Shown one piece after another: positions 36,001-42,000 of a stretch of 64,000 nucleotides of DNA. The stretch covers positions 1,589,226-1,653,225 of the forward strand of contig CP000066.1 of assembly GCA_000002445.1 (NCBI GenBank), read 5' to 3'. The position numbers were made by a program. Source of the stretch: Trypanosoma brucei (taxonomy: Eukaryota). How positions within the stretch are numbered: the stretch's first letter is position 1; the number at the start of each line of letters is the position of its first letter.

Positions 36001-39000
36001 CACCATATAATCAGGGGCTTCAGTAATGAGCATAATTGTTTGAGACGGTATTTTGAAAATACAACTTTTGTCTTTTCTAGTGTATGGCTTAAGAAAATGG
36101 AAGTCGATAGGTTGTAAATGCTCACGAATAGTGGGCTAAAGAGTATTGTTAATACGTGTTTGAGAAGAGGAGGATATGCTAAATGAGGCTCAGCAGCAGG
36201 ATTGTGTGCATTGGATAAGAGCAACACATGTGTGCAAATCAAGCGCGTAATGTGCTAACCAAAAAAGCCATAAAGTTACAGCTGAAGCCGATGGAACCGA
36301 GGGAGGATGTGGAAAAACACAACATGAATGTGCAAGTACTCAGTAAGAGGATGGACAAGCTTGTTGAGTAAATAAAGAAATTTCAAGGAAAAGCCAGTTG
36401 GAAGTGTAATAACCTTGTATGGTTATTAGTAAAGTGGAGTCATTGGATGCATAAATTAGGGAGAGTGAGGTAACCAGTGGGAAAACAGCTGTAAGGGAGC
36501 TTAATGTTTATGTCCAGCTTGAAAGAATACACTCATCTAACTGTATGTATTGGGATGTGCTTCCTGCTTTGTTGGATGCTGCTGTAATTGGTTTGTGTCA
36601 GGCACTTATTAATTTCGATACATTGATGTATATGTCTGTTGAATATGTCTGCTAATATCAGTAATGACTGTGATGATAAGTTTTTTTCCCTCTTTGACTA
36701 ATTAATGTATGGGAAAAATCACTAAGAGGCACGAAACAGTGTTTGTCATTGGATTGTTTTGCGACTTTTATCTCCTTCCTTTCAAGGTGATATGCGGTCG
36801 TTCGAATGGAGGACTGATATGGTTGAGTGGAGCTAAATTACGGACTACATCGATGACGACTACAAGTACCATAACGTCGGTGAACTCGGGACACTTTGCA
36901 AGATTTACAGAATTACGCAGGCAGAAGCTCCACAACCTTCCTTTGAGAATCGTGAGAAGGAAGGAGAGATTCTGAATAAGTTGGAGGAAATGGTCAAACA
37001 GACGGCGGCTGGTGGTAGTAAAGGTTCAAGTAAGTTGGGTAAAAGAACGACGGCATATCAGGAGATAAAGATACTTCTTGAGAAGGCGAAAAAGCTGAAG
37101 GAAGAAATAGAAGTGAATAGGACAAAAGCTTTGAATGCAAGTCGTTCCGCTAAAGATAGTATGTTGAGAGCTGTGTATGGCGACGCTGTGGATGTGGCAA
37201 GAAATGAGAATAAAACTCTAGAGCAAGCCATGAGAGGAAACAAATCACTACTGTTCAACAGTGTTGATCATGCAAATATGAGTTGTGGTTCTTACAGAGA
37301 CAAACTGGTTGGAAAGACACTGATCAATGACTTTTTCTGCCTATGTGTGGGAGAGGCGACAGATTTACAAATAAGAAGCAATAAGTATTATGCACTCGAC
37401 TTAAGTTCGAATTACCACCCTGTGTATAATGGGTTCAACTGTCCCTACAAGGATGAAATAAGGAGGCCCAAAAATGGAAGTTGGACTATGATGGCTGATT
37501 ATTGCCCAAGCAACTATAATACTTGCGACCCTAGAAAGGTAAAATACAACCATACTGAGGCATGGGATGTGATTAGTAAAGCTTGCGTGTACAAAAATGT
37601 TGCATCGAATGTGAAAACTCTGAAGAGTGCACTAGCTCAGTTTGATGCGTTGGTGAATTTAGAGCAGGATAATTATCAAATGAAGGGTATTCTTGGGTAC
37701 GCGGATGTTTCAGAAAACACAAATCGCGTCTGCAACGGTCATACTGCTGGATTCACGTGTGTCAGTTACAATTACACACTTGAAAATGGTGGAATTCCAT
37801 GGTACAATCACCTTACTAACGCTACTGAGCAACTGCAAGAAATGGCGAAGTATGCCAAAGAAGCTGACAGTCATCTTTACGAATTGGAAGAGTACCAACA
37901 TGAGGCAGAGGAAATATATCTTGAAGTGAAACTTGGTGGTGATGCAGAGCTATGGAAGAGTAGCCGAGGTAAGGGTGATGAAGGTGATGATACTAGGGTA
38001 GATTATGATGGAATTACTCATTTGAATATGGAAACTGGGGGTTTTACATTATTAGTTTTCTCTCTTATTCTTATCTTTTAGTTTAATATTACATTACCAA
38101 ATATGTTATGTTATGTTTTCTTTTGTTTTTTTCGCTTCTTTGTTGCTGCGTGTATGTGGTATAATATATATGTGTATTTGTGTTGATGTGTTTGTTAATT
38201 TCTCGTGAGATGTAAATGTTTTAAATTATCCCATATAAACTTGTTTTGTTTCTAGATAAATAATGAAGGTGGTATCACTTTTTCTTGCAGCGTGTCTGGT
38301 AATATTCGGTGCTGTCAGTAAGGCAGTGACGGAGTAGCCTTCCGGTAAGGCCATGACACTCAAGGGAGCTGAAACATTATGTAACTTCAGTCATACCTTG
38401 AGGCCTGTGGGTGCTAAGACTCAGGACAAACAAAAAATGCGACAGAAACGGTGGATAAGTTTCTGGGGTGGAGACATCGGCATGGTGTAAAGGGAAGGAC
38501 ATGGAAGGCAATAGTGCAGGGTTTGGAGAAGATAGGAGTTGTTAATGGAAGTGATATGGAAATTATGAAGAAAACATATGCGGAAATGGAAAAGGTAATG
38601 AACAATACAGACAAGGCTCTGCAGGTAATGGATACTAGTTTTTTAGACATTGTGAGAGTTTCCTATCATGTTGTGAATGCATCACTGTCAATAGGGCAAG
38701 TGTTGAGGGACTTGGTGGTGATGTTTGAGAAAACTAAGGGAAGTGGAAACAGTTGGTGCTGTTTGGTGAAGGAGAAAACTGCCTCTTCACGAAATGGATG
38801 TGGAAGTGGGAGCGGTAGTGGAAGTGATGGTAAACACGAGTTGGCTAGTGCTCCAGAAGAGTGTAATATGTCTGTTACAAAGGATATGTCAGATGATGGT
38901 GTACTGGTTACGCTAGATAAATATAAAACTGACCAGAGAGTTGAACTTACAGACAATAACGACACAAAATGCTGGATCATGGGCACGGAAGATGTTGCAA

Positions 39001-42000
39001 ATGGAGGGGCTGGATCCTTCATAGTTGGAACTACTGGAGGGTTCGTTACCTATAGCCAAGGTTCTGCCGTTATCCTGAAATCTAGCAACATGGTGCTCAA
39101 ACTCATCAGCGATTACACTTCAATCAGAGACGGATATGAAAGTGTTACAAAACAGTACCGTGATGTAGAGCCAACTCTTACTTCCTTTTCTGAGCATGAA
39201 AATAAACTAAAAAAATTGTCAACTCAGAGTCCGATGGTGCGTAGGTATTTCAAGGAGAGTGGAAGGAAACACAAAGGAACTGTCGATGACGATGATGTTA
39301 TAGATGAAGAGGGGTTCACAATGAGGAAGCAACGTACCCTAATGGGTTTAATGGCTTTTGCAGCAGTTTTGGTTATGTGATTCAATGTTATATTTTACGC
39401 TACGGTTCTGTTATTGGTATTGACCGTTTGTGATACCCGCTGCTTTTTTGTGTAATGGAGGGTATGTGTTTTTCTCTTTTATATCTTTCGTCACATGTGA
39501 TTGTAGGTAATGAAAGTTGAAATTGTGGAATTGGCTATTTTGTTATCTTTTATAATTTGCGTTGACGGAGAAAATGTGGAGCATAACTGCAAAACGGTAG
39601 ATGATTATTATTTTAGAAATATAAATGAATCCGTATGTTATCTCAGTTGCCTTTCAAATGCATTAAATAAATTATACAGCGATGGTGAAAAGAGGCTGTT
39701 TGTGAATGAGGAAGCATACGCAAATGCTTCTCGTATATTGGATGATATGGAAGGAAAAACGGGTGAAAGCACGAAGTATTTGAGTGTCATTAGCAGTGTA
39801 ATGGAAGGGGAACATGATAAATTGGAAAAGCTTATATCTTATGGAAATCAAATGGGAGACCTTGCGGCTAAGGCGGGTGGATTATTTGTTGAAGTTAATG
39901 AAAGCGTAAGAGCAGTGAGGAAGGAAATACGTGACGCTCTTATACAAGCAAACAAATATTATACGGCTGTTGCGGAAATTGCAGGAACGGTGTGGGCTTT
40001 TGATGGACAAAAAGTGGTTGAAGGTGATCACAAGTGTGACCTTGAAGCAAGTAAAAAAACCGTAGAGTTTCAATCTAAGTGCAGCGCCCACACGTGTCCG
40101 CTAAGAAACGGAGTGAATAAGAGCACCCTTCAACAATACAAGAATGGCTGCCTCGAAATAAGTGTTATGCACAGCCATATTGTGGACTTCTGCCACCAAT
40201 CGCCTAGGAATGTCCTCTATGTTAGTGGCGCTGTAAAAGACTCAGGTAATGCACTGAAATGGAAACCCGGTCATGCTTTCTTCCTCACTATTGAAGTAAA
40301 GGGTATCTTCAGCTCCCTCATCGCTTCCTTTACTGCTGGTCATCCACCTCCCGTACTTCTTGCAATGGTGTCCAATATGACTTTACTTTACTCGCTTTTC
40401 AGTGAGACTTACAGCAATTTCACTTCGTTGTTGCTCGGCACAAGTATCACCGATAATTTGAATAGTACTGATTCTACCACTTGAAAAATATGTTCATATA
40501 CGTTTCCACTCATACACATATGTGTTTACATACATTCTTTTGTGCGAGTTTGCACGCGATTATGTTCTTAGCGATTTTCTTTTTCTATTGACATGTTTTG
40601 CTTCCCTGGAAAAAACTAAACCTTCTGCGGTGATAATGCTATAATGCCCCAAATACTTGTATGCATAGTTTGCGTGAATGAAGCAAAGTTCTTTCTGGTA
40701 CGTTACCTTTCAGAGCTTTTCTTTTATTAGGATTTGCAAAACTCTGTAGGGCATGAAAGTTAACCGTTGATGGGGATAGTGGCTTCTCAGTTGCTGCGTT
40801 GCATTGTTTTCTCTGCAGTCATAGCGTGGATGTGATTTGCAGATTGGGACCATTCCATGAGAAAGGCGGTATACAAATGGCTTTCATCTTCGTTTACGTT
40901 TCCGACGCCATTCTTGGTTGTTTTTAGGGGACGCTTATTGCAGAAGTGGCACCTCTCAGTTTGATTATCTAAATGTGTTGATGGTGGAACGTAGGTGTGG
41001 TGACCGTAAGGGAGGGCCGAGGACGATGGATGAGGTGCGTGATGAGGGGTTGGAGTGCCTTCTGAGTAAGAAAATGGCGACAGGGGATCTGGCGCTTAGT
41101 GTGGGTAAGTGAATCGAAATCCGTTTGAGGGGAGAGATGTGCTCGGTTTCTTTCCTGAGGTGAAAGTTTTTAAAAATAAAAAAGGAACTATTTATGTATA
41201 TATACTATGCGTGTTTCTTTACATTTTCTTTGATAGCAAGGTGTTTTGTTATTTTTACTATGATTGAGGGATGACACTTGAGGGGTGATACCGTCAGGTA
41301 TGTGTGAGAACGGTGTCAAACGCTGGGGGACCTGACCAACGGATAAAACGAGTGTGACATTTGGCTATCTTCGACACGATGCATGTGGGTAGTTCGGGGG
41401 AGTGCGGGGTTGTATTATTACTCAGACCCTTGTAGCAACGCTTTGTCAGTGTGTTGCGTCGTGGCGTCTGTGCCGGCAACGGAATCAGCCTGTTGGTCCG
41501 AGGTTGGTGCCACTGTTGCAGATCCTTTGCTGATTCCTTCTTCCCCCAGACATCACTTGTGCAGCAAAAACGCAAGTTGTGCTAACTATAGTGGATTATA
41601 CTGCGGTATAACCATAATAATGGCGTTTTATTCAACACGCTTAATCAGCAGAACTGTTAATAATTTAAACCCAGTTTTTTCTTGCGGTGCTACACGCACC
41701 ACATGTCTTTTCTAGAATTTTAATTACACTGCGCGTACTAATTCCCCGCGCTCACCGCTTTCATCATTTAGTACCGGGTGAATATTGTCCTAGATCTCCG
41801 CGGAATAATGCATTGTCGTTTGAATTTATCCTAGTCGTAGAATCATTTCAAATCATGGCTATAATAACATCCTTTTATGTTTCTTCCACAGTGTTAAAAA
41901 TCAGAACTTTCTAAAATAATGTTTGAAGAAGACCACAAGGTTGCAATCACCGACATGTAATTTCCCTTACGTTAACATACTCCCAGTTCCAGTATAAAAC

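What the first reader, a model, noticed from the sequence alone, without database searches (positions are those of the whole stretch)
36700..40500. Cluster of three ESAG/VSG-related surface-protein-like genes, one decapitated
Three plus-strand ORFs in a row have surface-protein hallmarks. The first (36981-38081) has a type B VSG-like CLCxG motif and a GPI tail, but no signal peptide, and a frameshifted upstream ORF. The second has a signal-peptide mini-ORF (38263-38337) that stops after 24 codons, followed by a 309 aa body with a GPI-like tail. The third (39510-40484) looks intact and secreted. This fits the pattern of ESAG or GRESAG relics commonly interspersed in silent VSG arrays, but family assignment needs a search.
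Basis: partly seen in the sequence, partly recalled or inferred. Interest (0 to 1): 0.5.

Follow-up and report, generated by a model that had tools for sequence, protein, structure and literature searches.

The report
Non-telomeric ESAG2-ESAG11-ESAG1 gene cluster
These are three known Trypanosoma brucei surface-protein genes (ESAG2, ESAG11, ESAG1) in their usual order on chromosome 3 of the reference strain; the first two are dead pseudogenes and the third is an intact, already annotated gene, so the finding is real but ordinary.

Summary
The three + strand ORFs exist exactly as described. The window is Trypanosoma brucei brucei TREU927 chromosome 3: five window ORFs are exact matches to TREU927 proteins on the 1,653,225-bp record.

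- **ORF1 (36724-38081)** is an ESAG2/GRESAG2 pseudogene. It has a VSG_B domain and is 87% identical to a GRESAG2. It carries ATG>AAG at the start position, a 1-nt deletion in the signal peptide, an in-frame TAA, and a conserved Cys changed to Tyr.
- **ORF2 (38263-39380)** is an ESAG11 pseudogene, 88% identical to ESAG11. It has exactly two lesions: TAG at codon 25 and a -1 frameshift in an A6 run. Repairing both gives a 372-aa protein that aligns with ESAG11 without gaps.
- **ORF3 (39510-40484)** is an intact ESAG1 (Pfam 4.6e-105), 100% identical to XP_844168.1.

ESAG2-ESAG11-ESAG1 is the published conserved order at the distal end of bloodstream expression sites, and the same module is already described at non-telomeric convergent strand-switch regions. 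Here there are no 70-bp repeats after ESAG1 and no telomere repeats. An ingi element and a convergent VSG array follow.

This is already known and of low interest.

One side observation: an AlphaFold model of ESAG1 weakly resembles the trypanosome three-helix-bundle receptors.

The parts
35302..35508 (+). Isolated 3' fragment of a second, divergent ESAG1 copy (last ~60 codons plus stop)
   Evidence: tblastn with about 30 ESAG1 proteins covers 35302-35505. Pfam ESAG1 gives E = 2.1e-11, 44.2 bits, profile positions 179-227 of 227. It has no DNA similarity to the intact ESAG1 in the window.
36681..36695 (+). Polypyrimidine tract upstream of the ESAG2 pseudogene (candidate trans-splicing signal)
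   Evidence: Run TTTTTTTCCCTCTTT. Its function is inferred, not tested.
36724..38081 (+). ESAG2/GRESAG2 pseudogene (VSG_B domain, hydrophobic C-terminal tail)
   Evidence: Pfam VSG_B 1.3e-21. 87% identity to the 454-aa GRESAG2 P0012, and all hits are ESAG2-type. tblastn covers residues 11-453 over 36753-38075 in one frame.
36724..36726 (+). ESAG2 pseudogene lesion 1: AAG where intact ESAG2 genes have the ATG start codon (an in-frame ATG lies 5 codons upstream, at 36709)
   Evidence: DNA alignment with an intact T. b. gambiense ESAG2 (L003 6431). Protein N-termini of P0012, P0015 and P0017 compared with the frame translation.
36757..36760 (+). ESAG2 pseudogene lesion 2: 1-nt deletion in the signal-peptide region (ttgttt-tgc), shifting the frame by -1
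   Evidence: DNA alignment gap relative to the L003 ESAG2. The homology changes frame here.
36834..36836 (+). ESAG2 pseudogene lesion 3: in-frame TAA stop (WS* where P0017 has WSK)
37446..37448 (+). ESAG2 pseudogene: TAC (Tyr) replaces a Cys that is conserved in the CPC motif of the three ESAG2 proteins aligned
   Evidence: Pairwise alignments with P0012, P0015 and P0017.
38116..38133 (+). Polypyrimidine tracts upstream of the ESAG11 pseudogene; the first AG downstream is at 38208
   Evidence: Function is inferred.
38263..39380 (+). ESAG11 pseudogene
   Evidence: 88% identity to TREU927 ESAG11 P0001, and all 11 hits are ESAG11. After repair of the two lesions it is 372 aa and aligns to P0001 without gaps.
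38335..38337 (+). ESAG11 pseudogene lesion 1: TAG at codon 25 (Gln/CAG in homologues)
   Evidence: A 95%-identical T. equiperdum copy (L002) has CAG at this position.
38432..38437 (+). ESAG11 pseudogene lesion 2: an A6 run one base short, giving a -1 frameshift
   Evidence: The same A6 run is present in the T. equiperdum L002 copy, so it is not a sequencing error of this assembly.
39469..39480 (+). Polypyrimidine tract upstream of ESAG1; AG at 39505, 4 nt before the ATG
   Evidence: Function is inferred.
39510..40484 (+). Intact ESAG1 gene (324 aa), annotated as XP_844168.1 / AAZ10609.1
   Evidence: Pfam ESAG1 4.6e-105, profile positions 1-227 of 227. 100% identical to P0028. Full-length alignment with 36 ESAG1 proteins gives 39 invariant columns, so none of the family's fully conserved residues is lost. 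The T. equiperdum orthologue differs by 1 nt.
42783..47920 (+). Degenerate ingi retrotransposon separating the ESAG trio from the convergent VSG array (context; the 3' end is approximate)
   Evidence: Endonuclease, RT, RNase H and zinc-finger domains lie in at least 6 broken ORFs. The conserved ingi/RIME 5' end, recognised from my own knowledge, is seen. The 3' region is shown.

Best explanation
This is a non-expression-site copy of the ESAG2-ESAG11-ESAG1 module of Trypanosoma brucei. It lies on TREU927 chromosome 3, at the downstream end of a + strand gene run that converges, across a degenerate ingi element, on a - strand silent VSG array.

Shown here:
- The family identity of each gene.
- The canonical gene order.
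- The exact lesions that kill ESAG2 (lost ATG, -1 frameshift, nonsense codon) and ESAG11 (nonsense codon, -1 frameshift in an A-run).
- The integrity of ESAG1.
- The absence of telomeric expression-site landmarks.

Inferred:
- The module is transcribed as part of the surrounding polycistronic unit, as are other non-telomeric ESAG2/11/1 clusters at convergent strand-switch regions.
- Each gene keeps a polypyrimidine tract and AG for trans-splicing.
- Only ESAG1 can yield a protein. That protein would be a signal-peptide-bearing glycoprotein whose predicted fold is an elongated helical bundle like other trypanosome surface receptors.
- ESAG2 and ESAG11 transcripts, if made, encode nothing useful.
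- The module arose by duplication or transposition among the dispersed ESAG2/11/1 clusters and is decaying from its 5' side.
For: Source:
- ESAG1 and four other window ORFs are exact TREU927 proteins on the 1,653,225-bp record. Accessions AAZ10600 to AAZ10609 rise in order along the window.

Families:
-.

Lesions:
-.
- The A-run frameshift is also present in an independent T. equiperdum assembly.

Gene order:
- Hertz-Fowler 2008 (PMC2567434) gives the conserved order ...ESAG3, ESAG2, ESAG11, ESAG1, uses the phrase 'ESAG2-11-1 cluster', and reports ESAG11 as a pseudogene in most expression sites.

Non-telomeric clusters are already described:
- Tb927.1.4890-4900, Tb927.1.5100-5120 and Tb11.01.6230-6250 lie at convergent strand-switch regions and are up-regulated in bloodstream forms (PMC2837033).
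- I confirmed the chromosome 11 arrangement in T. b. gambiense: two genes with Pfam Trypan_glycop hits (the procyclin-associated genes of PMC2837033), ESAG2, ESAG2, ESAG11, an ESAG1 fragment, then convergent housekeeping genes (L003).
- Non-ES copy numbers are ESAG1 = 21, ESAG2 = 18, ESAG11 = 12 (PMC3605285).

Closest relatives are non-ES copies:
- ESAG2 pseudogene: 87% to a GRESAG2, versus 68-74% to the UniRef 'ESAG2' entries from T. b. brucei that have no genome contig on record (P0017-P0023), which I take to be the Lister 427 expression-site copies.
- ESAG11 pseudogene: 86-88% to the chromosome 1 copies, versus 80% to the Q9Y021 ESAG11 entry.

Not a telomeric site:
- The 70-bp-repeat core motif occurs only upstream of the - strand VSGs.
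- There are no tandem arrays and no TTAGGG repeats.

Strand context:
- GC-skew sign changes and ORF strands match the strand switches.
Against: - Transcription, trans-splicing and protein expression were not tested.
- ESAG1 differs from its T. equiperdum orthologue by only 1 nt in 975, and the flank by about 4 in 1970. Purifying selection therefore cannot be shown, and the open frame could simply be young.
- An ESAG1 3' fragment sits upstream of the ESAG2 pseudogene, and ESAG11 is a pseudogene as in expression sites. Both would also fit derivation from a former expression site.
- I could not retrieve TriTrypDB gene IDs or the annotation of the two pseudogenes. PMC9241505 lists an 'ESAG pseudogene Tb927.3.5790', but I could not map it to these coordinates.
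Confidence: 0.9

Rival explanations
1. This is a relic of the distal end of a former or transposed bloodstream expression site that lost its 70-bp repeats, VSG and telomere (for example through the ingi insertion or a rearrangement) and is now decaying.
For: - The order is identical to the ES order, and ESAG11 is a pseudogene as in most ESs.
- An ingi element lies 2.3 kb downstream.
- An extra ESAG1 3' fragment upstream of the ESAG2 pseudogene could be the end of a preceding duplicated unit. ESAG duplications occur in ESs.
Against: - There is no 70-bp repeat remnant on the + strand after ESAG1 and no telomere repeats.
- No ESAG4, ESAG8 or ESAG6/7-type domains were found in upstream + strand ORFs.
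- The nearest relatives of ESAG2 and ESAG11 here are non-ES copies, not what I take to be the Lister 427 ES copies.
- The same module exists at several internal loci without ES features.
- Published phylogenies separate ES and non-ES ESAG1 and ESAG2 clades.
Confidence: 0.08
2. All three genes, ESAG1 included, are non-functional. The ESAG1 frame is open only because too little time has passed.
For: - Two of the three neighbours are dead.
- The TREU927 and T. equiperdum copies are 99.9% identical, so there is no power to detect selection.
Against: - ESAG1 aligns full length with 36 paralogues that are only 49-59% identical, and no fully conserved residue of the family is lost (39 invariant columns in A2).
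- It has a hydrophobic signal-like N-terminus.
- It keeps a polypyrimidine tract and AG just upstream.
- By contrast, the neighbours accumulated 2-4 lesions each.
Confidence: 0.3
3. The three ORFs are segments of one longer gene, or the frameshifts are assembly errors and all three genes are intact.
For: - They share a strand and are closely spaced.
- One lesion lies in a homopolymer run.
Against: - Each ORF is colinear with a complete protein of a different family, with its own signal-like start and stop.
- Three of the five disabling lesions are substitutions (ATG>AAG, TAA, TAG).
- The A6 frameshift recurs in an independent T. equiperdum assembly.
Confidence: 0.02

Closest known systems
ESAG2-ESAG11-ESAG1 cluster at the distal end of T. 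brucei bloodstream expression sites (Hertz-Fowler et al. 2008, PMC2567434)
   Same: It contains the same three families in the same order and orientation. ESAG11 is a pseudogene, as in most expression sites.
   Different: - It is not telomeric.
- No 70-bp repeats or VSG follow ESAG1 on the same strand.
- No other ESAG domains were detected upstream.
- ESAG2 is also dead.
- The ESAG2 and ESAG11 sequences are closer to non-ES copies.
Non-telomeric ESAG2/ESAG11/ESAG1 clusters at convergent strand-switch regions (Tb927.1.4890-4900, Tb927.1.5100-5120, Tb11.01.6230-6250; Veitch et al. 2010, PMC2837033)
   Same: - The module is the same.
- It has the same position, at the end of a polycistronic unit facing a convergent unit.
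- It is made of T. brucei-specific genes.
- The ESAG11 pseudogene is 86-88% identical to the chromosome 1 copies.
   Different: - Here ESAG2 and ESAG11 are pseudogenes and ESAG1 is the survivor. In the chromosome 11 cluster it is the reverse: ESAG1 is a 146-aa fragment.
- The convergent partner here is a VSG array behind an ingi element, not housekeeping genes.
- Expression of this copy is not documented in what I read.
Trypanosome three-helix-bundle surface receptors (HpHbR, GARP, factor H receptor, ISG65)
   Different: - Similarity is weak: Foldseek E = 2e-3 to 2e-2, TM 0.3-0.5, 7-14% identity.
- No sequence homology is detectable.
- The model is of moderate confidence (pLDDT 74).

Membership tests
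ESAG1 (Pfam PF03238) | Full-length match to the ESAG1 profile above the curated cut-off | tested here: met
   350.6 bits against a cut-off of 27, profile positions 1-227 of 227.
ESAG1 (Pfam PF03238) | Intact ~325-aa ORF, colinear with family members, with the conserved residues retained | tested here: met
   324 aa. The alignment with 36 ESAG1 proteins has 39 invariant columns, including C43, C47, C176, C191 and C196; an invariant column by definition includes this sequence. It is 100% identical to the annotated XP_844168.1.
ESAG2 / GRESAG2 (b-type VSG-derived) | VSG_B domain, with closest relatives annotated as ESAG2 | tested here: met
   PF13206, 77.7 bits against a cut-off of 25. All 16 hits are ESAG2/GRESAG2-type, the best at 87%.
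ESAG2 / GRESAG2 (b-type VSG-derived) | Uninterrupted ORF from a signal peptide to a hydrophobic C-terminal tail | tested here: not met
   ATG>AAG, a 1-nt deletion and an in-frame TAA fall within the first ~38 codons. It is a pseudogene of the family, not a functional member.
ESAG11 | Sequence homology along the full length to characterised or annotated ESAG11 | tested here: met
   80-88% identity to ESAG11 proteins, including Q9Y021.
ESAG11 | Uninterrupted ORF | tested here: not met
   TAG at codon 25 and a -1 frameshift in the A6 run.
Bloodstream VSG expression site | ESAG2-ESAG11-ESAG1 in conserved order | tested here: met
   compared.
Bloodstream VSG expression site | A 70-bp repeat array and a VSG downstream of ESAG1 on the same strand | tested here: not met
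   No tandem array was found. The core motif occurs only on the - strand next to the - strand VSGs. An ingi element follows instead.
Bloodstream VSG expression site | Telomeric position (TTAGGG repeats) | tested here: not met
   0 matches in the 64-kb window. The telomere could still lie beyond the window.
Bloodstream VSG expression site | Upstream ESAG7/6/5/4/8/3 genes and an RNA polymerase I promoter | tested here: inconclusive
   No Pfam domains were found in + strand ORFs of 75 aa or more between 22 and 36.7 kb, apart from the ESAG1 fragment. ESAG3 and the promoter could not be tested with these tools.
Trypanosome three-helix-bundle receptor fold (for ESAG1) | Elongated three-helix bundle specifically superposable on HpHbR, GARP, FHR or ISG | tested here: inconclusive

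The most novel reading that the evidence does not exclude
ESAG1 has been described as having no homology beyond T. brucei and as possibly having evolved de novo inside the expression site (PMC3605285). The most novel reading the evidence allows is that it is instead a very divergent member of the trypanosome three-helix-bundle surface-receptor superfamily (HpHbR, GARP, factor H receptor, ISG). On this reading, the intact chromosome 3 copy is a functional gene expressed outside expression sites, retained while its ESAG2 and ESAG11 neighbours decayed.
Probability: 0.3. Interest if true: 0.35.

Novelty: already known. Interest (0 to 1): 0.1.

Why it matters
It matters little beyond correct annotation. 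The locus lies in the reference genome, the ESAG1 gene is already annotated, and both the ESAG2-11-1 module and its non-telomeric copies are published.

Three things are useful:
- The exact lesion map of the two pseudogenes.
- Evidence that the ESAG11 frameshift is also present in a 95%-identical T. equiperdum copy that lacks the nonsense codon, which suggests but does not prove that the frameshift is the older lesion.
- A weak structural hint that ESAG1, a protein of unknown function and origin, may share the helical-bundle architecture of trypanosome host-ligand receptors.

Tried and rejected
- **Bacterial promoter/terminator scan of 36-41 kb:** counts were at the shuffle expectation, and the scan is irrelevant to a trypanosome.
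- **Tandem Repeats Finder:** no 70-bp repeat array, only A-rich and (TAT)n runs.
- **tRNA scan:** none found.
- **Self-BLAST of 33-42.8 kb against the window:** no internal duplication. The ESAG1 fragment and the intact ESAG1 share no DNA similarity.
- **Exact-protein contig look-ups for TREU927 proteins:** not on record, so TREU927 paralogous loci could not be fetched as DNA. T. equiperdum and T. b. gambiense loci were used instead.
- **Pfam on ten + strand ORFs upstream (22-36.7 kb):** only the ESAG1 fragment hit.
- **Pfam on ORF2:** only noise (Serglycin, Ogg-HhH, E >= 0.1).
- **Gene ID from the literature:** I found 'ESAG pseudogene Tb927.3.5790' and 'Tb927.3.5770 hypothetical' but could not map them to coordinates.
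- **Literature on the ESAG1 fold:** nothing relevant in the held library.
- **Rejected readings:** one multi-exon gene, assembly-error frameshifts, and a bona fide telomeric expression site.

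
Full report
**Observation**

- ORF1's listed start is a TTG, counted only under the bacterial code. The first ATG is at 36990.
- The CLCVG motif is at 37338-37352.
- Hydropathy confirms a hydrophobic C-terminal tail on ORF1 and ORF2, a hydrophobic N-terminus on the mini-ORF and on ORF3, and none on ORF1.

**Source**

[quoted passage not shown] From my own knowledge of the chromosome sizes this is chromosome 3.

Four more window ORFs are exact TREU927 proteins on the same record. 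Their accessions rise along the window: AAZ10600 at 3727, AAZ10601/2/4 in the tandem array, and AAZ10606 at 18249. The window is therefore reference-genome sequence.

**Family assignment**
- **ORF3** matches Pfam ESAG1 end to end (4.6e-105).
- **ORF1** matches the b-type VSG domain (1.3e-21). Its 16 homologues are all ESAG2/GRESAG2-type, the best being a 454-aa GRESAG2 at 87%.
- **ORF2** has no Pfam family. Its 11 homologues are all ESAG11, at 88% and 86% to two TREU927 copies on the 1,064,672-bp chromosome.

**Lesions in the ESAG2 pseudogene**

I compared three-frame translations, tblastn, protein alignments and a DNA alignment with an intact T. b. gambiense ESAG2. The whole ESAG2 coding sequence is present from 36724, with these changes:
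- AAG replaces the ATG start at 36724-36726. An in-frame ATG lies five codons upstream, at 36709.
- One nucleotide is missing in the T-rich stretch at 36757-36760, inside the signal peptide.
- TAA lies in frame at 36834-36836.
- A Cys conserved in the CPC motif of the three homologues aligned is Tyr at 37446-37448.

Only its first ~17 codons are ESAG2 sequence; from 36753 the homology is already in ORF1's frame.

**Lesions in the ESAG11 pseudogene**

There are exactly two lesions: TAG at codon 25 (38335-38337), and an A6 run (38432-38437) that is one base short. Reading through the first and adding one A gives 372 aa that align to P0001 without a single gap.

A T. equiperdum contig (L002) carries a 95%-identical copy with CAG at codon 25 but the same A6 run. 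The frameshift is therefore genuine. It may be the older of the two lesions, though whether L002 is an orthologue or a paralogue is unresolved.

**ESAG1**

It aligns full length with 36 family members that are only 49-59% identical to it, and the 39 invariant columns of that alignment show that no fully conserved residue of the family is lost.

A T. equiperdum contig (L001) is orthologous to window 38994-42452 at 99-99.5% identity. It differs in the ESAG1 CDS by one nucleotide, giving Q114E. That is too little divergence to test for selection.

**Context**
- GC skew and ORF strands show gene runs on + (1-14 kb), - (14-22 kb), + (22-48 kb) and - (48-64 kb).
- Downstream of ESAG1 lies about 2.3 kb without recognisable genes, then a degenerate ingi element (about 42783-47920; endonuclease, RT, RNase H and zinc-finger domains in broken frames).
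- Beyond the ingi is a - strand VSG array. Each VSG is preceded, in its own orientation, by the 70-bp-repeat core motif.
- No such motif, no tandem array and no TTAGGG repeats follow ESAG1 on the + strand.
- Upstream of the ESAG2 pseudogene sits an isolated 3' fragment of a different ESAG1 lineage (35302-35508). It has no DNA similarity to the intact copy.
- Each of the three genes is preceded by a polypyrimidine tract and an AG. This is compatible with separate trans-spliced mRNAs, but that is an inference.

**Comparison with what is known**
- Hertz-Fowler et al. 2008 (PMC2567434) report the conserved expression-site order ESAG7, 6, 5, 3, 4, 8, 3, 2, 11, 1. They refer to 'the ESAG2-11-1 cluster' and note that ESAG11 is a pseudogene in most sites. 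They also note that ESAG families have chromosome-internal members that evolve differently.
- Veitch et al. 2010 (PMC2837033) describe ESAG2/ESAG11/(ESAG1) clusters at internal convergent strand-switch regions on chromosomes 1 and 11, up-regulated in bloodstream forms.
- I verified the chromosome 11 arrangement in T. b. gambiense: two genes with Pfam Trypan_glycop hits (the procyclin-associated genes of that paper), ESAG2, ESAG2, ESAG11, a 146-aa ESAG1 fragment, then convergent housekeeping genes.
- Jackson et al. 2013 (PMC3605285) count 21, 18 and 12 non-ES copies of ESAG1, ESAG2 and ESAG11.
- The ESAG2 and ESAG11 copies here are closer to non-ES paralogues than to the entries I take to be expression-site copies.

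The locus is therefore one more member of a described class: a non-telomeric ESAG2-11-1 module at a convergent boundary. In this copy ESAG2 and ESAG11 are dead and ESAG1 is intact.

**Side observation**

An AlphaFold2 model of ESAG1 built from the 37-sequence alignment (pLDDT 74, pTM 0.65) shows helices 38-97, 102-165 and 280-309 forming an elongated bundle.
- The top ten Foldseek PDB hits are all trypanosome surface proteins of the three-helix-bundle class: HpHbR, ISG65, GARP, a metacyclic invariant surface protein and the factor H receptor. Scores are weak, with E = 1.7e-3 to 2e-2 and TM 0.3-0.5.
- This is suggestive, not proof. I found no paper in the held library that addresses it.

**Verdict**

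The title needs correcting: two pseudogenes, neither truncated. The feature is already known and of low interest.

Noticed in passing
window 3727-12174 (+): Four tandem copies of a 353-354-aa 'hypothetical protein, conserved' gene lie at 5543, 7421, 9233 and 11113, with a period of about 1.88 kb. Three are identical and one is 84% identical. A paralogue at 40% identity lies at 3727-4719 and is named 'T. brucei spp.-specific protein' in T. b. gambiense. None has a Pfam domain. The array lies next to a strand switch, as Jackson 2013 describes for the Fam4-7 gene families.
   Followed up: partly
window 18249-19136 (-) and 32010-32915 (+): An intact gene that UniRef names ESAG9 (AAZ10606) lies on the - strand. 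A weak ESAG9-like stretch (25% identity, tblastn 4.5e-7) lies on the + strand, spanning two ORFs (31839-32447 and 32454-32924), the second of which ends in a hydrophobic tail.
   Followed up: partly
window 35302-35508 (+): An orphan 3' fragment of a divergent ESAG1 (Pfam 2.1e-11) lies 1.2 kb upstream of the ESAG2 pseudogene. No further ESAG1 homology was detectable upstream of it.
   Followed up: yes
window ~42783-47920 (+): A degenerate ingi non-LTR retrotransposon has its ORF broken into at least six pieces. The ~1.5 kb before it (41.3-42.8 kb) is GC-richer and was not identified.
   Followed up: partly
window 48773-63841 (-): A silent VSG array lies on the - strand. It has a broken copy at 48.8-50.1 kb, a-type VSGs at 52222-53667, 56737-58170 (weak Pfam score) and 59367-60872, and a b-type C-terminal part at 62798-63841. 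Each is preceded by the 70-bp-repeat core motif TGTTGTGAGTGTGT (at 51644, 55104, 59049, 62439). The exact VSG proteins tested are not in the protein collection.
   Followed up: partly
window 29179-29706 (+): A 175-aa ORF contains a 'CLCKG' motif reminiscent of b-type VSG but has no Pfam hit. It could be a VSG-related remnant.
   Followed up: no
L002 (T. equiperdum CZPT02001964.1) 8755-11026: The ESAG2 3' end and ESAG11 5' segment appear twice in tandem, at 81% and 95% identity to the window, separated by runs of N. This is either a real duplication or a scaffolding artefact. One of the two copies keeps an intact reading frame through the A-run.
   Followed up: partly
window 39510-40484 (ESAG1 model): The predicted ESAG1 structure is an elongated helical bundle. 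Its best PDB matches are trypanosome three-helix-bundle receptors (HpHbR, GARP, FHR, ISG65), at weak scores.
   Followed up: partly
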